Positions 1 to 28,406 of a DNA stretch of 64,000 bases are shown piece by piece (position 1 is the first letter of the stretch; every line of letters begins with the position of its first letter). The notes beneath the pieces were generated by a model. That model ran no database searches and was not told where the DNA came from. It saw only the letters and a program-made list of their open reading frames with translations. Made by a program: the position numbers and the translations under genes. The stretch is from a virus: IMG/VR virus record IMGVR_UViG_3300045131_002298, positions 38,742 to 102,741 of that record. One strand, 5' to 3'.

Positions 1-2595
1 TTATGAGCGTACCCACCCTGGCAAGTACTTCATGCTTTTATAGTTCTCAAAAGACTCTCCCGTACGCATGACTCCAAGTTCGAATTCGAGATAGTATATA
101 GCGCGGGTTGGTTGTATCAAAGCACGACACCTATAAAGGCCCCTATCTATATCCAAACCTGAATTCAAAACTGCGTTTTTTAGCTCGCCTCCGTCAAAAA
201 AAGCGTCCCGGTCCGTTTGAAGGCAGTAGTCATAGATGGCATATTTGTTTTTCCATGAGTCGAATGCAGGTTCAAGTACCCTATGAATTTCTCTCCATGT
301 AACTGGATGGTTAGGTTCAAATAGAAAGGTTCTTAGTACTGGCATAAGTGTTCTATTAACAACCGTTATGAATCTCATAACGTTTAGTTCACGAGTAGCA
401 GAAGGGGCTCTTTGTGTAGTCCTCTGCTCCCAGAACATAGCTCCCTCTATTCCAGGCATCTTTGATATCATCAAATAATTAATGCCATACTCTGCAAAAA
501 GATCTGCATAACCAGTTGATCTATAATCCTGGATATTAAAGTCAATTCCTTCTACCAGCTGAACAGCGCCTCTTCTTGGGCCTACTGGCGCATAATGTGA
601 ACCATAGTCATTATCAGTTCTACACAAGCAGGAAGCTAAATGTCCTAGATTAGGTATATATCGTTTAGCAGAATCCCTATCATCAAAGACAAGAGGGCGA
701 CCAAACCACAAGGAAAATCTATGTGAATTAAAAGCAGGATGTGTGTAATTACCAGTACCCATTCTCCAGGCTACTGTATCCTCAGGATCATTACCAGGAG
801 GAGTTGCTCCATAACCCATCATATCGCCACGATTCTCGCAATAAGTAATCATTGCATTATATACTGTTGCTGATACTGTGCCAGGAACCATAAGATCCAT
901 ACTCATGTATGTAGTATCTGCAGCATAAATGCCAGTTTGCGCAGCGGCATCCCCAATCCAGTCAGCATCATCGAACCCATCATTTGCTAAATAAGTATCA
1001 GCTGTAAGCCCCAATACTGTATAAGCATCATGTGTAACTGCCTGTAAGTGAATGTTTTCTGTATCATCGTTTGCTTGTATTTTGAGTTTATTATTATAGG
1101 AAGTAGCTGTAGCATCTGACAAACTATCATTAATTTGTATAACAACTTCAGCTAGAGTTTTAGCTGCTCCTGAAAGAGTAATGGTTTGAGGGGCGTCGGC
1201 TCCAACCTGAATCAGTAACGTATCATCAGTACCGGTAACAAAGGTAAATGGCCCGAGTTCTGAGCCCACAAAATAACCACCCTCTTCATCAATACCATTA
1301 GAACCACCATGCAAATAATCACCAGTACCATTAGCAACTGGCATATTAAGAGGCGAAGCCGTGGCAGAATGAAGATCTACAACATCCACGAGAAAAGACT
1401 GCTCGGCAACAAAGTTTACAACATATCTTTCACTCTCTGAATCCATAGACATATCTGGATAATATTCTTCCATATCACCTTGTCTATCATTTATAATTCT
1501 GAGATTAAAATAAAGATCTTCATGTAAGAGCGAATCGGTTATAATAACCTTAAGATCGTCTCCCCAATCACCTTCATTAAGAGCGTCAATTCTAAGGGTT
1601 GCCTGCGAAGAACCAGCAGCAGTCCCAGCTACCTCGTCTGTGTCAAAACCAAGAGGAGTAAGAGCGGTACTTGACGAGAACTGAAGAGTAGCGCTTGTAC
1701 CAGAAGTTAAAGTTTCAATTCTTACTTTGCCTTCATTTGCATAGACATATACATCTTCGAAAGCCTGCATTCTTTGTACAACTTGGCCTGTAGTAAGAGT
1801 AAAGTCGCCTTCTTCTCCGGCTATAGGAGCAAGAGTTAATGATTGTGTAGCTTCTCCGTCAACAGAAAGAATAAGGTTATCTGTTCCGGCTTCTGCGGCA
1901 TCGGTCGTAGTAGTAAGTGGGAGGCCCAAAAGTGCATAGGCTGAATCAGTTATAGTGATTACACCTAAAGAGTGGGTTATTGTGTTGGCCCAAACTTTAA
2001 GAACATATGCGCCACTTCCTTCGTCATAAACAGCACTGGCAGTCATACCCGTAGTATGCGCATTTATATAATCAGCAACACCCTGCGTGGTAAGAGTTCC
2101 TGTGAGCGTTAACTCCTGAGCTGTTCCAGCATTTACAGTAAAAGAAAGTTTATCTGATTCGCCTGTAACAAAAGTAAAGGGGCCAACTTCTGTTCCCAGA
2201 AATCTACCCGAGAGCTTTTGGGTAAGAGCGAAAGGACCTACTTCACTCTCAATCACAGCCACCCCTGCAGTGTCTGCTCTATCATAAAGAGTCAATTGTG
2301 CTTTAGTTGCTGTTAATGTAGTAGGATCGGCAGGATCATCGTAATGTGCGGTTCTGATCAGATTCAGTCTTGCGCCTTGTCTAAGCGCCATTTCAACTAC
2401 TAGTGGATCAGTTGTCCAAGATACTTTCTTACCGTATCTTTTCCTATACTCTTCCATGGTAGAGATAATACGGGCAACACCCATCTCACCTCTTTCTGCC
2501 TTGATGACCATGGTTACATACCCACGAACCACTTCATCAACAAATAACGATAAGTCATTTATCCGCCATATAACTCTAGCTGCGCCAAGCGTCAT
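1..2595 (-). CDS. contractile tail sheath protein with inserted repeat domains
   Basis: C-terminal sheath motifs (APVGPRRG, INY, WEQRT, ELNVMR, FLFEPN, IQPTRAIYY). ATG at 2595 has a GGAGG RBS; the ORF track extends it to 2616. Confidence 0.9.
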   Translation of the reverse strand: MTLGAARVIWRINDLSLFVDEVVRGYVTMVIKAERGEMGVARIISTMEEYRKRYGKKVSWTTDPLVVEMALRQGARLNLIRTAHYDDPADPTTLTATKAQLTLYDRADTAGVAVIESEVGPFALTQKLSGRFLGTEVGPFTFVTGESDKLSFTVNAGTAQELTLTGTLTTQGVADYINAHTTGMTASAVYDEGSGAYVLKVWANTITHSLGVITITDSAYALLGLPLTTTTDAAEAGTDNLILSVDGEATQSLTLAPIAGEEGDFTLTTGQVVQRMQAFEDVYVYANEGKVRIETLTSGTSATLQFSSSTALTPLGFDTDEVAGTAAGSSQATLRIDALNEGDWGDDLKVIITDSLLHEDLYFNLRIINDRQGDMEEYYPDMSMDSESERYVVNFVAEQSFLVDVVDLHSATASPLNMPVANGTGDYLHGGSNGIDEEGGYFVGSELGPFTFVTGTDDTLLIQVGADAPQTITLSGAAKTLAEVVIQINDSLSDATATSYNNKLKIQANDDTENIHLQAVTHDAYTVLGLTADTYLANDGFDDADWIGDAAAQTGIYAADTTYMSMDLMVPGTVSATVYNAMITYCENRGDMMGYGATPPGNDPEDTVAWRMGTGNYTHPAFNSHRFSLWFGRPLVFDDRDSAKRYIPNLGHLASCLCRTDNDYGSHYAPVGPRRGAVQLVEGIDFNIQDYRSTGYADLFAEYGINYLMISKMPGIEGAMFWEQRTTQRAPSATRELNVMRFITVVNRTLMPVLRTFLFEPNHPVTWREIHRVLEPAFDSWKNKYAIYDYCLQTDRDAFFDGGELKNAVLNSGLDIDRGLYRCRALIQPTRAIYYLEFELGVMRTGESFENYKSMKYLPGWVRS

Positions 2596-2713
2596 ATCAG
2601 TAACCTCCAATATCAATTATAAATTTGGTCTAAGCCTCTAAAAAATTATTAATTAGTTTTTTAGTATTAGGAGCTTAGGTAAATGAAAACATTAATTTTT
2701 AAGACATAATAAA

Positions 2714-3106
2714 TTATTTCTCTTTTTTCTTTTTAATAGGTACAGTAGGAGTAGTAAGGGCTTTCTCTAAATTCCATCCTTCTTCTAGTCTACTTATTAC
2801 AGCCTTAATTCCTATCTTATTATCTTTAGCATGTGCAGAAAGTGTCTTCACTTTCCCATTAAACTCAACTTTGTCTTTAGGATTTGGTGTTAAGACGGCA
2901 AAATCTTTGTCCATATTCTGCTCTTGCTGCTCTTCTTTATAGCAACCACAAGATTTTACGTTGCCATCTCTTAAGACATACTCAGTGATCTGGCACTCAC
3001 TGCCACAATCACATTGACAATTCCAAAGAGGCTCTCCGGGCTTGATGCTTTCTGCTCGAGAATTTACTGTCAACTTGCCAAATTTTCTACCAACAAGTGT
3101 GCCCAT
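2714..3106 (-). CDS. HNH-family homing-endonuclease derivative lacking the nuclease core
   Basis: GRKFGKLTV...WNCQCDCG...SCGC N-terminus and FNGKVKTLS...RLEEGW..EKALTTP C-terminus, as in 33106..33792, but without the central LDRIDN/YSP.NCRW segment. Confidence 0.65.
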   Translation of the reverse strand: MGTLVGRKFGKLTVNSRAESIKPGEPLWNCQCDCGSECQITEYVLRDGNVKSCGCYKEEQQEQNMDKDFAVLTPNPKDKVEFNGKVKTLSAHAKDNKIGIKAVISRLEEGWNLEKALTTPTVPIKKKKEK

Positions 3107-3108
3107 AA

Positions 3109-3318
3109 TTATGCGTCTATCACGCTCACCATTTTTCTAGCGAGCATACCATTCTTTTTTGTAACACTTTCCGGGAGATCATCGAACTGGACAGCCTTAG
3201 ATATATGCGAAGTTTTTCCGGTTCTAAATTGTGTAAGACTAATATAAGTCCCACTATTAAGTTGTATGCCTAATTCACCATTGGTGTTATTCATTACTTT
3301 TACTAATCTATCGGCCAT
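3109..3318 (-). CDS. small hypothetical virion-operon protein
   Basis: Co-oriented in the late operon; GGAGG RBS. Confidence 0.6.
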   Translation of the reverse strand: MADRLVKVMNNTNGELGIQLNSGTYISLTQFRTGKTSHISKAVQFDDLPESVTKKNGMLARKMVSVIDA

Positions 3319-3350
3319 TTATTTTTGCCTCCAAAAATTTATATTAGGAT

Positions 3351-3366
3351 TTGCAATTGATTGCAA
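3351..3366. repeat. 16-bp palindrome TTGCAATTGATTGCAA, copy 1 (intergenic)
   Basis: Exact sequence; recurs 7 times in either orientation in the window. Confidence 0.85.
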
Positions 3367-3369
3367 ATT

Positions 3370-3987
3370 TTATTCCGCTGGACGTTCCCACAAGCCCATT
3401 TGAGTGGGAGTATTATCTATTTCTTTATCAAATAGTAGCTCTGACATAGGAACTACTGTATACGATTCTAGCTTCTCTATATGAACACCATAAACATCAA
3501 AAAGATATGATACTTTAAATAATGGTTTATGAAGTACATCCTTATTTATTGGGGCTGTAAAATCAAAGAGCAAATACTGTCCTGATATATTAGGCTCAAA
3601 ACCAAAGGGAAAAGCCTGATCCATCATCACAAGAAGCGTATCTGCATGCTCTTTTATAACCGCTTCTGTATCTATTATATACCTTAATATATAAACCCCT
3701 GGATATTGTTTAACATCATAACCAGTCGGTACTACTCTAACATTACCATTAGCTAATTGTATAGTCTTTTTTGTAGTCTTTGGTACTAAAGTTTCTATAC
3801 CGTACCTACGTCTTACTTTATCTTCTTCAAAGCCTACCCTTGATACACTAGCAAAAGGGTACTCATTATTGTCCCTTTCTCTAGCAGGCTCATAAGGAAG
3901 TACTGGTAATGTAACCCCATCAATAGCTATAAGCCTTAATCTATTTACTATAAACTCGTCTACGTCTGGGATTATATTATTGGACAC
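3370..3987 (-). CDS. putative tail completion/terminator-like protein
   Basis: Position between neck genes and sheath; YPF motif; size. Positional inference. Confidence 0.4.
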   Translation of the reverse strand: MSNNIIPDVDEFIVNRLRLIAIDGVTLPVLPYEPARERDNNEYPFASVSRVGFEEDKVRRRYGIETLVPKTTKKTIQLANGNVRVVPTGYDVKQYPGVYILRYIIDTEAVIKEHADTLLVMMDQAFPFGFEPNISGQYLLFDFTAPINKDVLHKPLFKVSYLFDVYGVHIEKLESYTVVPMSELLFDKEIDNTPTQMGLWERPAE

Positions 3988-3990
3988 GTA

Positions 3991-4380
3991 TTAGCCTTTT
4001 ACCTTAACTGTAACTGCGTCACCCATCCACTGGGTAGACTCTGTTTTTTCTGGATCCATTGCACGAAGAGCAGATTTTAAATCTGTGTCATTTATAGTAC
4101 ACTTAATAGCCGCTCCCACATACGCTTTTAAATAATTTTTTTTAGCCTTTAGGAATTTCCCTAATTTAGCTTTAAAATCCTCAGGTATACCTTCTTTACC
4201 TACCCCTGGTTTAAATCTTAATTTCATACCACCCATAGATCTATTTATAAAACTATGTCGTACTGGTATTCCTGTTTCAGCTTGAAAATCCTTAGATAAC
4301 CTAGCGCCATATACATCCATAGCTTCTAACATATTTCTATGAAATAATAATCCTTCTTTTCCTGAAAACGCCAGTGTCAT
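3991..4380 (-). CDS. hypothetical neck-region protein
   Basis: Tightly packed in the late operon. Confidence 0.5.
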   Translation of the reverse strand: MTLAFSGKEGLLFHRNMLEAMDVYGARLSKDFQAETGIPVRHSFINRSMGGMKLRFKPGVGKEGIPEDFKAKLGKFLKAKKNYLKAYVGAAIKCTINDTDLKSALRAMDPEKTESTQWMGDAVTVKVKG

Positions 4381-4383
4381 GCT

Positions 4384-4842
4384 TTATTGAGTAAGAGCCC
4401 AAGAATCAAAAGAAAATTCGCCTGTTCCGCCCGGAACGGGAGAGATTTGTGATTCTAGCTCTTCTGCTCTCCTTACATAAAATACTGAAAAAACTTGATC
4501 GGCATCTGCAAAAGGTGTAGTATCTACATCGCAAAAAGGCTCATTCGTAGAGAAATCATACCTCTTTCCTGCTATCAAAAAATACCATGAAGAATCTAAA
4601 GCTTCTAAACCTGAAGCCAATATATCTCTTGTGAGTAGAATGACTCTCTTTGAATTCTGATTTAAAATACCAGCGTCATTGTCTATTTCTAACTTTTCTC
4701 TACGCGCCCTAACTACTTCGTCATGTACTATAGCCTTATAATTAATAATCGTAGTATCAGTTACACAAGATATAGTTTTATTAGCTACAGAGTCAAACGT
4801 AGATTCCAATAAATATTTTGCCTGTGCGCCACGAGAGGCCAT
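4384..4842 (-). CDS. putative head-tail joining (stopper-like) protein
   Basis: Follows the adaptor gene; size and beta-rich pattern. Positional inference. Confidence 0.45.
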   Translation of the reverse strand: MASRGAQAKYLLESTFDSVANKTISCVTDTTIINYKAIVHDEVVRARREKLEIDNDAGILNQNSKRVILLTRDILASGLEALDSSWYFLIAGKRYDFSTNEPFCDVDTTPFADADQVFSVFYVRRAEELESQISPVPGGTGEFSFDSWALTQ

Positions 4843-5790
4843 TTAAGCTTCCTCTACTACTTCATCTAAAAGGGGATACACAAAATCTTCTGGGGAAATA
4901 AGAGTGCCGCCACGAATTTGGGAAATATAAGGTTTCATACGAAGATAAGCAGGAAGGGCGAATGCGCTCGTCATTGCTTGCATCATATTATATGTCGTAG
5001 TAGAAGATGTCGAACCGCCACTAGATGAGCTAGTAGAAGTAGTACTCACGTCCATAATTCCAGCTACCTTTACTTTGTCTACTATTGCATTTTGCAACGA
5101 TGTAGGAAGTAACGCTTCATCGGACATCGATATCTGCTCTAAAAGATTAGGCAATACTACCAACGAAGCCAATATAGCCTGAGCCTCTTTTATGGGAACG
5201 GGTATCATTGTAGTATCTCTTTGCACCGTTCTAGGGAAATCCAGCGCCTGATACTCATAAACCCGTTCACCTCTAATAGGCATAAATCCAATAAGCTCAG
5301 CAGCCAGTTTTAATATGTATTCTTTTGAATAACTAATATGATCTTCATACGTACCTGCTACAAAACCGAATACTGTGTATGCTGAAGTGTCTACTGGTTT
5401 TATATATAATGTATCTGTTGCTACTGTAGTAGTTATAACTATGCGTGAATCTGCTGTTGTTGTAAATGTAAATCCTGATACTTGTGCATTTAATGCAACA
5501 CATACTTGTGTTGATGTTAAAGGTATAGGATTATCATCGTCATCTAAGCTGCATGCTATAGTTATCTCTTGATCTGTACCTTCTCCTACAGCAAATAATA
5601 GTGTATCTGAGATTCCAGTAAGAGGCAAAAAAGGACCACTTACACGACCAGTATATCTTAATCCCTGATTGTCAGAAAGAGCGGACCACGATTCAGTAAC
5701 TAAACCAGTATTAGCTAATATTATTTCTGCTTCTTCTACTGTTATGTAGCTATCAGCGCTTGATCCACCAGGAGTTATTATTAAAGCCAT
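4843..5790 (-). CDS. head-tail adaptor (DnaT-like/gp15-type) with an inserted domain
   Basis: MALIITPG...ADSYITVEEA N-terminus and QALDFPR...IP..IKEAQA motif; internal insert resembles the sheath repeats. Confidence 0.7.
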   Translation of the reverse strand: MALIITPGGSSADSYITVEEAEIILANTGLVTESWSALSDNQGLRYTGRVSGPFLPLTGISDTLLFAVGEGTDQEITIACSLDDDDNPIPLTSTQVCVALNAQVSGFTFTTTADSRIVITTTVATDTLYIKPVDTSAYTVFGFVAGTYEDHISYSKEYILKLAAELIGFMPIRGERVYEYQALDFPRTVQRDTTMIPVPIKEAQAILASLVVLPNLLEQISMSDEALLPTSLQNAIVDKVKVAGIMDVSTTSTSSSSGGSTSSTTTYNMMQAMTSAFALPAYLRMKPYISQIRGGTLISPEDFVYPLLDEVVEEA

Positions 5791-23185: not shown

Positions 23186-23489
23186 GCCGGATTATAAATA
23201 TAAGCATATTAAAACACAGAATCCGGAAGATTGGTTAAAACAAGTAGATACTGATGGAGAATTAGTATATTGTAAAAAAAGATCAGCACGTATGCATACT
23301 CGTTTCTGCGATATTCTAAGAAAGGCAATACCTATTGCTCCTGAAAGTGGCTATATAGATAAAGGGCTAAAAGCTGTAAATATTTGTAATGACTGTGAAG
23401 TTACGCGAAATAAATTATCTGTAAGGCGTTTCATAGAATATCAGACTCAGATTAAAAAAGATGAAAAAACTAACGGAGACAATATATAA
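23169..23489 (+). CDS. hypothetical Cys-containing protein
   Basis: Operon-coupled ORF. Confidence 0.55.
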   Translation: MAKTPKPDYKYKHIKTQNPEDWLKQVDTDGELVYCKKRSARMHTRFCDILRKAIPIAPESGYIDKGLKAVNICNDCEVTRNKLSVRRFIEYQTQIKKDEKTNGDNI

Positions 23490-24370
23490 TGCAAGAGATT
23501 AGTAAGATAATACTATACGATGGAAGAGAGATAAATCATGGGGAGTGTATTAATATTCCTATGGATAGGGTGGAGCCTAACATGTTCAACCCTAATGAAA
23601 TGGATGATCTATCTTTCACTCTACTTGAAAATAATGTTGATTCTATAGGCTTTGTTGATCCTATAGTTGTAGTTCCTACTGAAGATGGAAGATTTATTAT
23701 TGCAGACGGTGAGCACAGATGGGAGCAACGTCGTATATCAGGGGAAAAAGAAATACCATGCATCGTAGTGTCTCCTGAAATATTTGATGAAAAAATGCTC
23801 ATGCTTCAAACAGTTAAATTAAATAAAATTAGAGGTTCTCTCAACGCAGAAAAGTTTAATGCACTCATAGACCAGCTTGTAAATAAACATGATATTCCTT
23901 TTGAAGATTTAGCAGAGGAACTTGGTTTTGCAGATGAAGATGAATTCGACGCTCTAGTAAAACAAGGAAGAGCGCAGCTGCCCAAAGAGGCACGTAAGGA
24001 ATATGATAAAGCAGTTAAGAATGTGCAGGGAAGTGTGAGTCAGTTGGCTAAGATTATTGAGAAGCTATGGCTCAAGTACTCCAATACAGTTCCTGCAAAC
24101 TTCTTTATTCTTGATTACGGGAGCCAGCGGCACTTGTGGGTAACTATGGATAAAGAATATCTTGCGTTAACCACGGATAAATTTAGAGACATTTTTGCAT
24201 CCGGGTATAAAGTTAGTTCAGTGCTACAACACATGCTAGCAGATCTGGATGTCATTTCTTATATAGAGGAGCACATAACTACGCTCGAGAAAATAGATGA
24301 TGGAGAGCAGGATCTTGACAGTCTTTTAGATCTTCCTTCTGCAAATCCAGTAGAGGAACTTTCTGAGTAA
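23489..24370 (+). CDS. ParB/Srx N-terminal-domain protein
   Basis: PN.FNPNEM...L..N....GFVDPIVV...IIADGEHRW...IPC; followed by an HTH-like LAEELGF segment. Confidence 0.85.
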   Translation: MQEISKIILYDGREINHGECINIPMDRVEPNMFNPNEMDDLSFTLLENNVDSIGFVDPIVVVPTEDGRFIIADGEHRWEQRRISGEKEIPCIVVSPEIFDEKMLMLQTVKLNKIRGSLNAEKFNALIDQLVNKHDIPFEDLAEELGFADEDEFDALVKQGRAQLPKEARKEYDKAVKNVQGSVSQLAKIIEKLWLKYSNTVPANFFILDYGSQRHLWVTMDKEYLALTTDKFRDIFASGYKVSSVLQHMLADLDVISYIEEHITTLEKIDDGEQDLDSLLDLPSANPVEELSE

Positions 24371-24374
24371 TATT

Positions 24375-25076
24375 ATGGCTGAAGATAAATTTCTTATAGC
24401 AAAAATAAAAGAAGCAGTGCCTACTAATAGCTGGCTATCTATATTAGATGATAAGCAGTTGGTAAAGCTTCATGAAATGTTAAAAAGAGGTGTTACTAAT
24501 AGTGAGATAATTAGAACCTGCCAGACTATTTTTAATGTAAAGAAGAAAGCTACTCTTCAGGATTTGTTGCCTGATCTGGTCAGGTTTAGAACGAAAGTTC
24601 TAGATGATAAAGCTTTAATGGTCCTTGAGGAAGCGCAGAAGAATAAAGTTGCATCTCAATTAGCAACTAAACTGCGAGGACTTACCTCGAAAGTAGATGC
24701 CTTCGGTAGGCTCAGTTGGTTAGTAGATCAACAGACACAGCGTGTCCTAAAACTCATGGACATAGAAGCTAAAACTCTACCTATGGATAAGACCACCGAT
24801 AATATTGCTATATTAGATAAAATGCTGCACAGCTTACTAAAAGCACAACAAGAACTAAAGCTAGATGATAGTAATGTGATAACTGCCGAAACCACTGAAA
24901 AATTAAAGGGATTGGTAGAAGGCTTCAAAGATGATGGGGAGACCATGATTCAGGCTACCCATAAATTACTATCCCTAGCAGAAGAACGTTCCTTAATATT
25001 AAAGTTAGACGAGGACGGCAGTTATTCTATAACTACCAAAGAGGAAGAAAAAGAAGTAATTGAAGTTACTTCTTAA
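24375..25076 (+). CDS. putative terminase small subunit
   Basis: Helical protein with an HTH-like N-terminus immediately upstream of the large terminase. Positional inference. Confidence 0.45.
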   Translation: MAEDKFLIAKIKEAVPTNSWLSILDDKQLVKLHEMLKRGVTNSEIIRTCQTIFNVKKKATLQDLLPDLVRFRTKVLDDKALMVLEEAQKNKVASQLATKLRGLTSKVDAFGRLSWLVDQQTQRVLKLMDIEAKTLPMDKTTDNIAILDKMLHSLLKAQQELKLDDSNVITAETTEKLKGLVEGFKDDGETMIQATHKLLSLAEERSLILKLDEDGSYSITTKEEEKEVIEVTS

Positions 25077-25082
25077 ATATTC

Positions 25083-28000
25083 ATGGCACTAGAAAATTTA
25101 CAGGTAATTCCTCTTAATACGGCATTTGAATTAGTATTTGATGTATTAAGGGAAAATAAGCTCTCTACTAGAGACGAGTCTATGTTAGAGGCGCTGGTAT
25201 TAGCTTGTCCTCAGATCTCTGATGGTGCAGATGCTTATATTTTAAAAGATGATCTTAATAACTTCTGTAGAAATTTTATACAAGCTCTCAAGGAAAACGA
25301 TGGTTCCTTTCTGTATAAAGAAAAGGGGTATAAAGGTAGACTAGTAGATATCGAGGAGTTTTTAGAGAGTAAGGAGTATATGGACCAAAAAGGTTCAGTA
25401 CGCCCGGTGGTAAAGTATGAACTACAAAACATAATAGAACGATTAGACAATACTAGAGAAGTAGTACTTACAGGGGCAACAGGTTGGGGGAAATCCTATT
25501 TATCTCGGGCACTTATAGAGTATATGTTATACAAATTAAGCATGCTTCACAATCCTCAATATCAATATGGGTTGGCTCCTGGTTCCTCTATTGTTATGAT
25601 TCTACAGTCATTATCTCTTCGTCTTAGTAAAAAGATTTTATTTGATCCGCTGCTATCTGCCTTTTCTGCTAGTCCGTATTTTACAAAGAATTTTTCTTTT
25701 AATAAACATGTTACCTCTGAGTTACAATTTCCTAAGAATATTTACATTCTTCCAGTATCTGGCAGTGAAATGGCTACTCTAGGGCTAGATGTTTATGCTG
25801 GATGTTTTTTACCAGAACAAGAATACGTAACAACGGAGGGGGCTTTTGATAGCTTAATATCAGACGTAGAAAATAAGAATCCTAAAATATTTGAAAGTAA
25901 TGCTCTAGTTCAAGGGAACAAAACAATAACACAATTTACAGGATGGAAACCTATAATTAAACTAACTTTTGATAATGGAGAAACTTTAATATGCACTCCA
26001 GATCAATATCTTCTAGGGGAAGGGCAGGAATATGTTAAAGCCGGAGAAGCAGAGGGAAAACGAATCCTATTTTCTAACATGTCAACTATGCGGAAGGAAG
26101 GTCATATATCTAACTACACATTTAAAGCAAGTTCACAACATGACTTCCTCAACTTACCTGGAACTGTTTCCGGGCTCTTACTTGCACGGGAAACCTATAT
26201 CGCATCGGCGCAAAACAGAATACAAAATAACATGTCAACTATGTGGGCAAGAGTTTGGGATGATTTCCTCTACTCACTTGTTAAAGAAACACAATATGAC
26301 CCCACTAGAATATCGAGAGAAATACGGTCCTCTGAAATCAGAAGAAGCTATAATGAAGACAAAAGAGTGGGCGAAAAAGAATATACAGAAACAGAAAAAA
26401 AATTCTCCAGACTTTGTTGCAAAGTCAATGATAGGAATAGAGAAACGTTTACACCTTGCCCACGAAGCAACTCGGTTAAAATTCTCCGATCCCAAAGAGA
26501 GACAGAAACATGGCGACAAAGCTTTAAAAAGATGGGAGGAATTGGCTTTAGAGGAAAAGAACAAGCGAGCTGCACAGGGAAGAAAACAATTACTTATAAA
26601 TCACATAGAAAATCCCAAATACATGTATACTCGCAGAAGAGGAGATATAATATCTCCACGTTCTCGTTTCGAAATAGCCGTTGCAGTATGGTTAGATCTG
26701 CTAGATGTTCCGTGGGAATACGAAAGTGTAGTGTTTCCTATGGAAATAGAAGGAGAATTTCACGTATACACCCCAGATTTTATTTTGCCTTTTTCTCTTA
26801 TAGAAGTAAAATCCGTCTGGAAAGATATGCATACAAAACAATGGCCTCTTATACAAGATATCTTTTCTCCTTTAGTCATACAGGCTACCTCGAAGGAAAT
26901 GAAAAAGATAGGAATGCAGAAATTTTACAACTATATAAACAGAAACAAAATAAATCAAGTAAACTTTCAGGAGATAGCTCCTTATTTAACTCTAAACGCT
27001 GTATACGGGTGGAAAATTTAAATGTAATTATGCCCGTGTATGACTTACATAATGTAGGAGGGTCCCATTTTTTTATTGCACGTACAGAAAACGGGTTTAT
27101 CCCTGTAAAAAATTGTATGTCAGAGCTTAATTATTTTTCTGTAGTTGAAAACAGCAAACAGTTAACTATGAGAGGGCAGGAAGACACAACCTACGATCAA
27201 GCATCTAATGCTTACACTAACTTAATCCAGAGACTTAAAAGTAGGTTCCAGACCTATGGTAAAATACCAGGATGTCTTATTTTAGATTCTGCTGTTCATT
27301 ACCCTGGAGATTTTCTTTCTAAGAAAATAGAAGAGGCTAAGTGGGATAATCAGATATATGTAGTAAAACATGCAATATGGGACACCTTATCACAAGATAG
27401 ATTTTCTGGCAAGCGATTCATTGTAGAAATAGGAACACTAGATCGAAGCTCTAGAATTATAGAATCTAAAAAATTTGCTTTACCTGAAGCCGACTTATTG
27501 GAAGTTCCAGAGGAATATAGATCTGACTTTGAAAGAGACATAGAAACTGCACTTAGAGACTTCGCGGGATTAGCTACGGGTCATAGGCGCGCCTTTATGC
27601 CTTTTAAAGAAAGTGTAACAGATGCGTATACTGTATATGAAGCTTACTATAACGGACATACCTTATTTAAAGAAGAGTCTATTGTAGTAAACGATTATTT
27701 TGTAGGCCCGTGGGAGTGGGATCTGCTTATAGATAAAGAGTATATGAAGCAAATAGCCTTTGATAAAAACGCTTCTTTTTGCATGCATGTAGACTTAGGA
27801 GTGAGTAAAGACAGAGTAGGACTGGCTATAGGTCATATACAAGAATATAAAAGCCTTCCTTCTACTTCTTTCTACTCAAAGGAACGTAACGACTTTACAG
27901 AAGTATTAGATATGGATGCTCCTGTTATATGTATAGATGGAATTATACAGATTCGGCCTCCTCAAGGAGGAGAAGTAGACTTTGATATGCTCCGGGGCTT

Positions 28001-28406
28001 CATGTTTTATTTATGCGATCTTTTGAATATGAAGATAGTTACTATGGATACCTACCAAAACGTATCTTTTATCCAGGGACTCAGGAAACTTAAAGTAAGA
28101 AGTGGTCCACTTTCTACAGTTACTACTCCTGTTCCTTATATGGAAGCAAAAAGTGCTTATATAGAAGGAAGACTAATGCATCCTAAGAATGAAGTATATA
28201 TAGACGAGTTGCTTCATTTAGAATATGATCCAAAAAAACAAAAGGTGGACCATATTCCCAATAGGCATAATGACACCTGTGATGCTGTAGTGGGAGTGAT
28301 ACATATACTTACACATAAGGTTGCTTCTTACAAAAGAAGCAGAAGAGACGCTAAGGTTACTGACAAGGTGCCTGCACATAGGCAAATAGTTATTAACAAA
28401 CTTTAA
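25083..28406 (+). CDS. terL: terminase large subunit, intein-containing
   Basis: Walker A GATGWGKS; nuclease domain HVDLG..KD, D...DTCDAV; intein at the Walker-B position. Confidence 0.88.
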   Translation: MALENLQVIPLNTAFELVFDVLRENKLSTRDESMLEALVLACPQISDGADAYILKDDLNNFCRNFIQALKENDGSFLYKEKGYKGRLVDIEEFLESKEYMDQKGSVRPVVKYELQNIIERLDNTREVVLTGATGWGKSYLSRALIEYMLYKLSMLHNPQYQYGLAPGSSIVMILQSLSLRLSKKILFDPLLSAFSASPYFTKNFSFNKHVTSELQFPKNIYILPVSGSEMATLGLDVYAGCFLPEQEYVTTEGAFDSLISDVENKNPKIFESNALVQGNKTITQFTGWKPIIKLTFDNGETLICTPDQYLLGEGQEYVKAGEAEGKRILFSNMSTMRKEGHISNYTFKASSQHDFLNLPGTVSGLLLARETYIASAQNRIQNNMSTMWARVWDDFLYSLVKETQYDPTRISREIRSSEIRRSYNEDKRVGEKEYTETEKKFSRLCCKVNDRNRETFTPCPRSNSVKILRSQRETETWRQSFKKMGGIGFRGKEQASCTGKKTITYKSHRKSQIHVYSQKRRYNISTFSFRNSRCSMVRSARCSVGIRKCSVSYGNRRRISRIHPRFYFAFFSYRSKIRLERYAYKTMASYTRYLFSFSHTGYLEGNEKDRNAEILQLYKQKQNKSSKLSGDSSLFNSKRCIRVENLNVIMPVYDLHNVGGSHFFIARTENGFIPVKNCMSELNYFSVVENSKQLTMRGQEDTTYDQASNAYTNLIQRLKSRFQTYGKIPGCLILDSAVHYPGDFLSKKIEEAKWDNQIYVVKHAIWDTLSQDRFSGKRFIVEIGTLDRSSRIIESKKFALPEADLLEVPEEYRSDFERDIETALRDFAGLATGHRRAFMPFKESVTDAYTVYEAYYNGHTLFKEESIVVNDYFVGPWEWDLLIDKEYMKQIAFDKNASFCMHVDLGVSKDRVGLAIGHIQEYKSLPSTSFYSKERNDFTEVLDMDAPVICIDGIIQIRPPQGGEVDFDMLRGFMFYLCDLLNMKIVTMDTYQNVSFIQGLRKLKVRSGPLSTVTTPVPYMEAKSAYIEGRLMHPKNEVYIDELLHLEYDPKKQKVDHIPNRHNDTCDAVVGVIHILTHKVASYKRSRRDAKVTDKVPAHRQIVINKL
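25803..27113 (+). mobile_element. intein in terminase (YAG|CFLPEQ...PVYDL...IPVKN|CMSEL)
   Basis: Cys1; block B-like LICTPDQ; block F VYDL; terminal Asn followed by Cys+1. Confidence 0.8.
26032..27021 (+). CDS. homing endonuclease (2 Zn fingers + PD-(D/E)XK) nested in the +1 frame of the intein
   Basis: CQLC...HL..H.MT...Y twice; SRFE...WEYE...YTPDF...IEVK; own purine-rich RBS (GGAAGGGCAGGA). Confidence 0.8.
   Translation: MLKPEKQRENESYFLTCQLCGRKVIYLTTHLKQVHNMTSSTYLELFPGSYLHGKPISHRRKTEYKITCQLCGQEFGMISSTHLLKKHNMTPLEYREKYGPLKSEEAIMKTKEWAKKNIQKQKKNSPDFVAKSMIGIEKRLHLAHEATRLKFSDPKERQKHGDKALKRWEELALEEKNKRAAQGRKQLLINHIENPKYMYTRRRGDIISPRSRFEIAVAVWLDLLDVPWEYESVVFPMEIEGEFHVYTPDFILPFSLIEVKSVWKDMHTKQWPLIQDIFSPLVIQATSKEMKKIGMQKFYNYINRNKINQVNFQEIAPYLTLNAVYGWKI

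What the first reader, a model, noticed from the sequence alone, without database searches (positions are those of the whole stretch)
25803..27113. Terminase intein with ~990 nt of dual-coding DNA: the endonuclease is hidden in the +1 frame
Seen: the intein frame stays open from Cys1 (25803) to Asn (27113), but its middle ~330 residues look like off-frame text. NMSTM occurs twice, exactly where the +1 frame reads TCQLC. The +1 frame (26032..27021) has its own RBS and encodes two C2H2-like Zn fingers plus a PD-(D/E)XK nuclease. In DNA this AT-rich an unselected frame should hit a stop within a few dozen codons, so both frames appear to be maintained. Established: intein endonucleases are normally in frame, and 'fractured' split inteins flank a free-standing endonuclease gene. 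Inference: this is an intermediate or alternative architecture in which the nuclease is translated independently while an essential protein must splice out a junk linker. Alternate-frame endonucleases in insertion elements may have precedent, so uniqueness needs checking.
Basis: partly seen in the sequence, partly recalled or inferred. Interest (0 to 1): 0.8.

Follow-up and report, generated by a model that had tools for sequence, protein, structure and literature searches.

The report
Terminase intein hiding out-of-frame nuclease gene
A freshwater phage's DNA-packaging gene carries a self-splicing protein insert (intein), and the same DNA also encodes, one base out of step, a complete zinc-finger nuclease gene; both frames are real and kept by selection, but this layout has been described before with other nucleases.

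Summary
The terL ORF (25083-28406, 1107 aa) carries a 437-aa insert (Cys 25803 to Asn 27113, then Cys+1) that intein-less relatives lack exactly. A 329-aa ORF (26032-27021) lies nested in the +1 frame.

- **Nuclease:** it has two Ros/MucR zinc fingers and an intact PD-(D/E)XK nuclease domain, and folds confidently (pLDDT 87.8).
- **Stop avoidance:** the terL frame has 0 stops across the 990 nt where about 28 are expected (P about 1e-17). The third frame has 38.
- **Second lineage:** an 82%-identical protein from another assembly (P0001) keeps the layout. Its substitutions fit purifying selection on the nuclease frame and only stop-avoidance on the terL frame.
- **Not removed at RNA level, on present evidence:** a contig from an RNA library spans the whole insert.
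- **Alleles:** intein-less alleles occur in the same lake samples.

Out-of-frame intein endonucleases were proposed in 1998 and described in 2025-2026 preprints. This scan has also noted many such cases on other DNA, mostly HNH or Vsr-like. What is new is the nuclease family, plus an unusual intein lacking the block B and penultimate histidines. Splicing, separate translation and homing are inferred, not shown.

The parts
25083..25802 (+). terL N-extein (240 aa), ending DVYAG
   Evidence: It is 95-96% identical to homologues. The family carries PF27249 and intein-less forms are 670 aa.
25803..26078 (+). Intein N-terminal splicing region. Cys1 is at 25803-25805. Block B reads TLICTPDQ, with Gln in place of the usual His.
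   Evidence: It matches block B of three Pfam-recognised inteins in portal protein P0180. A local HMM built from site-c inteins scores E 3e-6. It is 75% identical to P0001 before the overlap.
26017..26029 (+). Purine-rich Shine-Dalgarno-like tract before the nuclease ATG
   Evidence: The sequence is shown. Many genes of this phage have GGAG/AGGA/GAGG upstream. Two GGG Gly codons occur here although GGG makes up only 17% of Gly codons.
26032..27021 (+). Nested +1-frame gene (329 aa): two Ros/MucR zinc fingers, a helical linker and a PD-(D/E)XK nuclease
   Evidence: Pfam ROS_MUCR and Phage_endo_I hits. AlphaFold2 mean pLDDT 87.8. Structural matches to TnsA Z 7.2, I-Bth0305I Z 5.6, Vsr Z 5.3 and the Ros finger Z 4.7. 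The family-invariant residues E214, E231, D249, E258 and K260 are present.
26080..26136 (+). Zinc finger 1 of the nuclease (residues 17-35)
26233..26292 (+). Zinc finger 2 of the nuclease (residues 68-87; C68, C71 and H87 are nearly invariant in the family)
26656..26817 (+). PD-(D/E)XK catalytic core of the nuclease (residues about 209-262)
   Evidence: Alignment A2. Structural matches cover residues 209-298.
26079..26999 (+). terL-frame read-through linker (307 aa) with no recognisable domain. It is Ser/Arg/Lys-rich, with pI 10.3, net charge about +37 and GRAVY -0.95.
   Evidence: No Pfam hit. 40-65% identity to P0001 in most 20-aa windows, against 93-95% in the exteins.
27000..27113 (+). Intein C-terminal splicing region (blocks F and G), ending Lys-Asn
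   Evidence: TIGR01443 intein_Cterm scores 16.4 bits against a cut-off of 15.6. It is 90% identical to P0001.
27114..28406 (+). terL C-extein, starting with the +1 Cys (27114-27116), which is Val or Ile in intein-less alleles

Best explanation
This is a non-canonical intein in the large terminase gene of an uncultured freshwater phage. The terL ribosome reads straight through the 437-codon insert. The N-terminal part (about 92 aa) and the C-terminal part (about 38 aa) form the splicing domain. They excise the whole insert, including a 307-aa basic and probably disordered linker, and rejoin the terminase at a Cys.

The same DNA carries, in the +1 frame, a separate gene with its own start codon and ribosome-binding-like tract. 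It encodes a nuclease with two Ros/MucR zinc fingers and a PD-(D/E)XK domain. This nuclease most likely acts as the homing endonuclease: it would cut intein-less terL alleles near the GGT-GTC-ATG junction so that repair copies the intein in.

Selection acts differently on the two frames. The nuclease frame is kept as a protein. The terL frame across it is kept only free of stops, through the choice of synonymous nuclease codons.

Shown here: both frames are open, stop-avoidance is far beyond chance, a second lineage conserves the layout, intein motifs and an exact insertion are present, the nuclease fold and catalytic residues are intact, intein-less alleles occur in the same samples, and the insert is present in an RNA-library contig.

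Inferred: protein splicing, independent translation of the nuclease, and its target and homing activity.
For: - **Stop avoidance:** 0 stops against 28.4 expected, P about 1e-17, and 0 of 98 at-risk wobble positions are T.
- **Second lineage, P0001 (other assemblies, 1107 aa, no indels):** terL-frame identity is 59% in the overlap against 93-95% in the exteins.
 - Inferred changes fall 98:47:>=8 on nuclease codon positions 3:1:2.
 - The parsimony estimate of nuclease identity is about 85%, or about 81% after allowing for hidden changes.
 - Wobble transversions are synonymous in the nuclease frame in 16 of 21 cases against 44% expected (P 0.003).
 - At at-risk sites 12 changes to T are expected and 0 are seen.
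- **Nuclease:** pLDDT 87.8, PD-(D/E)XK and Ros-finger structural matches, and catalytic residues intact.
- **Intein:** TIGR01443 above cut-off and block B homology.
- **Exact insertion at a conserved site:**
- **Single terL copy:** only one copy is found in the 102.7-kb record, and its exteins are 87-96% identical to an intein-less relative.
- **RNA library:** a 3233-nt contig covers 25083-27227 with no differences and no joint, and there is no Rfam intron hit.
- **Family context:** distant relatives sit in mobile-element-like places. One lies inside the interrupted capsid gene of Bacillus phage SP-15. Another lies inside the fragmented, intein-bearing terL of Listeria phage LIS04, whose intein occupies the homologous site.
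Against: - No experiment shows splicing, nuclease translation or cleavage.
- The intein lacks the block B His (Gln in both lineages) and the penultimate His (Lys). Few natural inteins lack the block B His (PMC6333167), so splicing competence is only inferred from terL being essential.
- The intein-frame AlphaFold model was uninformative (pLDDT 30.6 with two sequences), so the HINT fold is not confirmed structurally.
- The DNA of P0001 could not be obtained, so frame-specific selection rests on parsimony from protein sequence.
- P0001 was found because its frame is open, which is an ascertainment bias.
- RNA-library contigs may derive from contaminating DNA.
- How a frame free of about 28 expected stops first arose is unexplained.
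Confidence: 0.8

Rival explanations
1. The nested nuclease ORF is a relic. The intein still splices, but the nuclease is no longer made or no longer active, so the intein is inherited only vertically.
For: The intein is rare. Only two lineages were found, and N-intein scans of IMG/VR and JGI found nothing. Expression is untested. No promoter-like site stands out above shuffled expectation.
Against: The ORF is intact in the window, with all family-invariant catalytic and zinc-binding residues and a confident fold. Substitutions between the two lineages favour the nuclease wobble position and synonymous changes. Intein-less alleles are present in the same samples, so targets exist.
Confidence: 0.1
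2. The insert is not spliced out. It stays in the terminase as a tolerated loop, like the ShiLan insertion in a phage methylase (PMC11855218).
For: The block B and penultimate histidines are missing. Pfam does not recognise an intein.
Against: Cys1, the terminal Asn and the +1 Cys are conserved in both lineages, and the +1 residue is Val or Ile in intein-less alleles. TIGR01443 passes its cut-off. Blocks B and F align with real inteins. A 437-aa insert with +37 charge next to the conserved DVYAG/xSE ATPase motif is unlikely to be tolerated; this last point is inference.
Confidence: 0.05
3. The nuclease is part of the intein polypeptide. Ribosomes shift +1 near 26030 and back near 27020, giving a canonical in-frame intein-endonuclease.
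For: None directly. The idea would only explain why the nuclease sits where endonuclease domains normally sit.
Against: Frameshifting would remove any need for the terL frame to stay open, yet it is stop-free at P about 1e-17. The +1 frame is closed by TAG only five codons before the ATG. No notable RNA structure lies at the start (z -0.09).
Confidence: 0.03
4. It is an assembly or sequencing artefact. Two compensating indels put a truly in-frame nuclease domain out of frame.
For: None.
Against: No indels were seen in four public runs, and contigs from independent DNA and RNA libraries were identical across the region. An independent assembly (P0001) has the same 1107-aa open frame. An accidental frame would carry about 28 stops.
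Confidence: 0.01
5. The segment is an intron that is removed from the RNA.
For: Distant relatives of the nuclease lie in intervening sequences of phage genes.
Against: There is no Rfam hit at E <= 1. An RNA-library contig spans both junctions unchanged. Selection keeps the terL frame open, which an intron would not need.
Confidence: 0.01

Closest known systems
Non-canonical inteins with an out-of-frame, same-strand homing endonuclease: actinobacteriophage inteins with an endonuclease VII-like ORF in another frame (Gosselin, Arsenault and Gogarten, bioRxiv 10.1101/2025.01.02.630785)
   Same: The splicing blocks flank a region whose in-frame translation has no recognisable fold, while another frame encodes a nuclease. 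Terminase large subunit is among the host protein types reported for the paper's non-canonical inteins as a group. The authors propose invasion of an intein by a free-standing endonuclease gene.
   Different: The nuclease here is a double Ros/MucR zinc-finger plus PD-(D/E)XK enzyme. It is not among the types that paper lists (LAGLIDADG, HNH, Vsr-like, endonuclease VII-like, GIY-YIG). The host is an uncultured freshwater phage. The intein lacks the block B His.
Cyanobacterial DnaX intein with an out-of-frame LAGLIDADG endonuclease (Phillips, DeSimone and Gogarten, bioRxiv 10.64898/2026.09.14.751524; first proposed by Gorbalenya 1998, 'Non-canonical inteins', as cited there)
   Same: There is an overlapping ORF with its own Shine-Dalgarno-like motif. 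dN/dS is low in the nuclease frame and high in the intein frame. Intein-free and intein-bearing alleles co-exist in populations.
   Different: That case is a bacterial gene with a LAGLIDADG nuclease. Here the gene is a phage terL and the nuclease is a PD-(D/E)XK enzyme.
Fractured genes: split inteins flanking a free-standing GIY-YIG or Vsr-like endonuclease gene (Dassa et al. 2009, PMC2677866)
   Same: A free-standing type of endonuclease gene sits at the endonuclease-insertion point of an intein in phage-like genes, including a terminase.
   Different: In fractured genes the host frame is broken by stops and the two halves trans-splice. Here the host frame is continuous (0 stops), so splicing would be in cis.
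Listeria phage LIS04 terL locus (OQ999172.1, LIS04_51 to LIS04_54)
   Same: A 24%-identical homologue of this nuclease (pairwise E 6e-14), with the same zinc-finger-plus-nuclease layout, lies inside a terL gene. That gene carries an intein whose C-terminal junction aligns with the same site (HN|CGLLDE against KN|CMSEL).
   Different: There the nuclease is a free-standing ORF between separate terL pieces, upstream of the N-intein ORF, and the host gene is in pieces. There is no overlap of frames.
ShiLan insertion with a hidden out-of-frame HNH in a phage methylase (PMC11855218)
   Same: The host frame stays open across an out-of-frame nuclease gene.
   Different: ShiLan has no splicing motifs. 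Here Cys1, block B, blocks F and G, the terminal Asn and the +1 Cys are all present.

Membership tests
Intein (class 1, HINT-type protein splicing element) | Cys, Ser or Thr as first residue; terminal Asn followed by Cys, Ser or Thr | tested here: met
   Cys at 25803-25805, Asn at 27111-27113 and Cys at 27114-27116. All are conserved in P0001. The +1 residue is Val or Ile in intein-less alleles.
Intein (class 1, HINT-type protein splicing element) | C-terminal splicing motif (blocks F and G) | tested here: met
   NCBIfam TIGR01443 scores 16.4 bits against a cut-off of 15.6. It aligns weakly to block F of the site-c inteins. The penultimate residue is Lys, not His.
Intein (class 1, HINT-type protein splicing element) | Block B region (TxxH) alignable with recognised inteins | tested here: inconclusive
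   The region aligns with block B of Pfam-recognised inteins: P0180 at 56% over 32 aa, and the site-c HMM at E 3e-6. Thr is present, but the catalytic His is Gln in both lineages. A small subset of natural inteins lacks this His (PMC6333167).
Intein (class 1, HINT-type protein splicing element) | Exact in-frame insertion at a conserved host site, absent from allelic genes | tested here: met
   Alignment A1. Contigs in runs X11 and X14 join 25801 to 27117 with TGTC between, and run X17 shows loose ends.
Intein (class 1, HINT-type protein splicing element) | HINT fold | tested here: inconclusive
   The AlphaFold2 model has mean pLDDT 30.6 with a two-sequence alignment. Pfam Intein_splicing gave no hit at E <= 1.
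Intein (class 1, HINT-type protein splicing element) | Protein splicing activity | not testable with these tools
   Inferred only from a single terL copy with conserved exteins and from selection for an open frame.
Non-canonical intein with out-of-frame homing endonuclease | [quoted passage not shown] | tested here: met
Non-canonical intein with out-of-frame homing endonuclease | Recognisable nuclease only in the alternate frame, and purifying selection on that frame | tested here: met
   Pfam hits and pLDDT 87.8 in the +1 frame, against no domain in the terL frame. The substitution pattern against P0001 supports selection on the nuclease frame. This is inferred from protein sequence, not from aligned DNA.
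Fractured gene / split intein (Dassa et al. 2009) | Host gene broken into separate ORFs by stop and start codons around the endonuclease gene | tested here: not met
   There are 0 stops in the terL frame in the window and in P0001. No truncated forms were found among shorter proteins.
PD-(D/E)XK nuclease, phage endonuclease I-like (PF05367) | Profile match above the curated cut-off, and catalytic E...PD...ExK residues | tested here: met
   29.9 bits against a cut-off of 29.1, which is marginal. E214, E231, D249, E258 and K260 are present. Structural matches are TnsA Z 7.2, I-Bth0305I Z 5.6 and Vsr Z 5.3, which are middling values.
Ros/MucR prokaryotic Cys2His2 zinc finger (PF05443) | Profile match above cut-off and Cys/His ligands | tested here: met
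   46.5 bits against a cut-off of 25.4, in two stretches. C68, C71 and H87 are nearly invariant in the family. The Ros NMR structure matches at Z 4.7.
Vsr-like / EDxHD homing endonucleases (I-Bth0305I) | Sequence membership (Vsr or DUF559 profile) | tested here: not met
   No such Pfam family appears at E <= 1. Only the shared PD-(D/E)XK-type fold is seen.
Self-splicing intron | Group I or II intron RNA structure, and removal from the RNA | tested here: not met
   No Rfam match at E <= 1. An RNA-library contig is continuous across both junctions.

The most novel reading that the evidence does not exclude
The read-through linker may be more than filler. It is 307 aa with about +37 net charge and has no indels between lineages that differ at 41% of its residues. 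It could have a role of its own, such as timing or conditioning splicing of the terminase, or tethering the precursor to nucleic acid. Alternatively, the locus could be a 'healed' fractured terL, derived from a LIS04-like arrangement by stepwise purging of stops. That would show a route from free-standing endonuclease genes to intein-resident ones.
Probability: 0.1. Interest if true: 0.6.

Novelty: new variant of a known kind. Interest (0 to 1): 0.35.

Why it matters
This case adds a nuclease family to the few known to live inside inteins in a shifted frame: a double Ros/MucR zinc finger plus a PD-(D/E)XK domain. It supports the view that free-standing phage endonuclease genes of many families have colonised inteins, and that annotation pipelines miss them.

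It also gives an unusually clean measure of what an essential read-through costs. About 28 expected stops are removed purely by synonymous codon choice in the other gene, and this is maintained in two lineages.

The intein lacks both catalytic-helper histidines, so it could serve as a natural test case for compensatory splicing chemistry. None of this changes the general picture set out in the 2025-2026 preprints.

Tried and rejected
- **DNA of the only close homologue (P0001):** Scans of IMG/VR with the nuclease, P0001 and the N-intein, and of JGI metagenomes with the N-intein, found no allele with this intein. Frame-specific selection was therefore inferred by parsimony from protein sequences.
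- **Context of the closest nuclease relatives (P0030, P0031):** not found in IMG/VR or JGI.
- **Truncated terL-frame fragments of the linker among shorter proteins:** none found.
- **Intein-frame AlphaFold model:** too shallow an alignment, pLDDT 30.6, so it was not used.
- **PDB sequence searches with the intein ends:** only chance hits.
- **Foldseek on the whole nuclease model:** no hit at E <= 0.001. The VIA search gave consistent but middling Z scores.
- **Promoter scan:** no more sites than in shuffled sequence.
- **RNA fold at the nuclease start:** unremarkable.
- **Coverage gaps inside the intein in runs X11, X14 and X17:** not interpreted.
- **Rejected explanations:** artefact, intron and frameshift fusion (see the rival explanations).
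Full report
**What is in the sequence.** The window comes from a 102.7-kb IMG/VR virus record, and public runs that hold this stretch are lake and freshwater samples. One ORF, 25083-28406, encodes a 1107-aa protein. Its homologues carry the terminase-family domain PF27249, and the intein-less ones are about 670 aa long.

Alignment with twelve homologues shows that this gene and one other (P0001, 1107 aa, 82% identical) carry a 437-aa insert between DVYAG and MSEL. Intein-less relatives have a single Val or Ile there. The insert begins with Cys (25803) and ends with Asn (27113), and a Cys follows it. In other members the same family carries in-frame HNH inteins at two further sites, the P-loop and a C-terminal site.

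Inside the insert, the +1 frame holds a 329-aa ORF (26032-27021). It starts five codons after a TAG and lies behind a purine-rich tract like the Shine-Dalgarno sequences of the phage's other genes.

**Is the double open frame more than chance?** Yes.
- Over the 990 nt the nuclease frame has only its own stop, the terL frame has none, and the third frame has 38.
- With the nuclease protein held fixed and codons drawn from the phage's own usage, the terL frame should carry 28.4 +/- 3.8 stops. None of 20,000 draws had fewer than 14. The analytic probability of zero is about 1e-17.
- At 98 junctions a T in the preceding wobble position would create a stop. None has T, against 35% T elsewhere.

**Which frame carries meaning?**
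- The +1 product matches Pfam ROS_MUCR (two fingers) and Phage_endo_I.
- Its remote relatives, at most 39% identical among 1.8 billion representatives, are 220-350-aa proteins with the same layout. Those in cultured phages whose context could be examined stand as separate genes.
- It keeps every invariant catalytic and zinc-binding residue of that family.
- It folds with mean pLDDT 87.8.
- Its C-terminal domain resembles the PD-(D/E)XK enzymes TnsA (Z 7.2), I-Bth0305I (Z 5.6) and Vsr (Z 5.3). Its N-terminus resembles the Ros finger (Z 4.7).
- The terL-frame translation of the same DNA has no domain hit. It is a Ser/Arg/Lys-rich, strongly basic and hydrophilic stretch.

**Comparison with P0001.**
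- terL-frame identity is 93-95% in the exteins, 75% and 90% in the two splicing regions, and 59% in the overlap.
- The minimum changes needed fall 98:47:>=8 on nuclease codon positions 3, 1 and 2. This is the signature of a protein under purifying selection in the +1 frame and the reverse of what the terL frame would show.
- Parsimony gives about 85% nuclease identity, or about 81% after allowing for hidden changes.
- Wobble transversions are synonymous for the nuclease in 16 of 21 cases against 44% expected (P 0.003).
- At stop-risk sites 12 changes to T are expected and none occurred.
- There are no indels between the two inteins.
- At the two edges of the overlap the roles swap. The terL frame is conserved there (the last part of the N-terminal splicing region and the first part of the C-terminal one), while the nuclease termini are predicted disordered.

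**Is it an intein?**
- The C-terminal piece passes NCBIfam TIGR01443 (16.4 bits against 15.6).
- Block B is 56% identical over 32 residues to block B of Pfam-recognised inteins in a T4-like portal protein.
- It also matches an HMM built from the family's site-c inteins (E 3e-6).
- Two features are unusual. The block B His is Gln and the penultimate His is Lys, in both lineages. Natural inteins without the block B His exist but are few (PMC6333167).
- The HINT fold could not be confirmed, because the AlphaFold model with two sequences was uninformative.
- Only one terL copy is present in the record, which is 83% complete by CheckV, and its exteins are well conserved. The insert therefore must be removed or tolerated.

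**Population and RNA evidence.**
- A 3233-nt contig from a freshwater metatranscriptome covers 25083-27227 with no differences and no joint. DNA carry-over cannot be excluded.
- Two lake metagenomes hold contigs of a related phage that join 25801 directly to 27117 with TGTC between, giving Gly-Val-Met. This is the empty allele. The same runs also hold pieces identical to the intein.
- A third run shows the same empty junction as loose ends.
- No indels were seen in any run.
- Rfam finds no intron.

**Relatives of the nuclease in cultured phages.**
- In Bacillus phage SP-15 a homologue lies in the intervening sequence of the joined major capsid gene.
- In Listeria phage LIS04 a homologue (pairwise E 6e-14) is a free-standing gene between pieces of terL. 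That terL also carries an intein whose C-terminal junction aligns with the site used here.
- This supports a homing role and a liking for terL, and it shows the 'fractured' counterpart of the present layout.

**Comparison with what is known.** The arrangement is a described kind.
- Out-of-frame endonucleases in inteins were proposed by Gorbalenya in 1998. That paper is cited but could not be fetched.
- Actinobacteriophage inteins with an endonuclease VII-like ORF in another frame were reported in 2025, and terminase large subunit is one of the host types listed for that paper's non-canonical inteins (10.1101/2025.01.02.630785).
- The cyanobacterial DnaX intein was reported in 2026 with the same frame-specific selection and co-existing alleles (10.64898/2026.09.14.751524).
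- This scan's earlier notes list dozens of such cases on other DNA, mostly HNH or Vsr/DUF559 types. None was found under the keyword MucR in one word search.
- The present case differs in its nuclease family, in the missing histidines, and in the extent and clean quantification of stop-avoidance.

**Open point.** A free-standing gene dropped into an intein would be expected to bring about 28 stops in this frame, so a one-step origin is implausible. It is unresolved whether the stop-free frame arose once and has since moved as a cassette, or arose by healing a fractured gene.

**Verdict.** This is a new variant of a known, rare architecture. Interest is moderate to low for novelty, though it would make a good, well-delimited experimental system.

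Noticed in passing
alignment A1 (homologues P0003-P0024 of window 25083-28406): This terminase family is an intein hot spot. Besides the site used here, homologues carry in-frame HNH inteins of about 275 aa in the P-loop (G|xxGWGKS). They also carry inteins of 140-351 aa at a C-terminal site (DHxPxx|xKD), including a 140-aa mini-intein in P0013.
   Followed up: partly
L009 (Listeria phage LIS04, OQ999172.1) 1996-5685: terL is in pieces: an N-terminal ORF, then a free-standing homologue of this nuclease, then an N-intein ORF, then a C-intein plus C-extein ORF in another frame. The intein's C-terminal junction aligns with the site used in the window. No Rfam intron was detected, and how this gene is expressed is unclear.
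   Followed up: partly
L004 (Bacillus phage SP-15, KT624200.1) 1938-4455: The major capsid gene is annotated as a two-piece join. A zinc-finger plus endonuclease I-like homologue sits in the intervening sequence.
   Followed up: no
protein P0180 (1784 aa, ENA): A T4-like portal protein (Pfam Portal_T4) with three Intein_splicing stretches and HNH. Its block B sequences are the closest match to the window's intein.
   Followed up: no
window 25076-25085: The terL start codon lies 7 nt after the stop of the upstream 233-aa ORF (24375-25076) and has no Shine-Dalgarno-like tract, which suggests translational coupling.
   Followed up: no
window 23489-24370: A 293-aa ORF with a ParB N-terminal domain (Pfam E 8.8e-9) lies two genes upstream of terL. 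It may belong to the packaging module.
   Followed up: no
window 26075-26090 and 26228-26243: A 16-nt exact direct repeat, 153 nt apart, marks the two zinc-finger modules. It explains the repeated NMSTM in the terL frame.
   Followed up: yes
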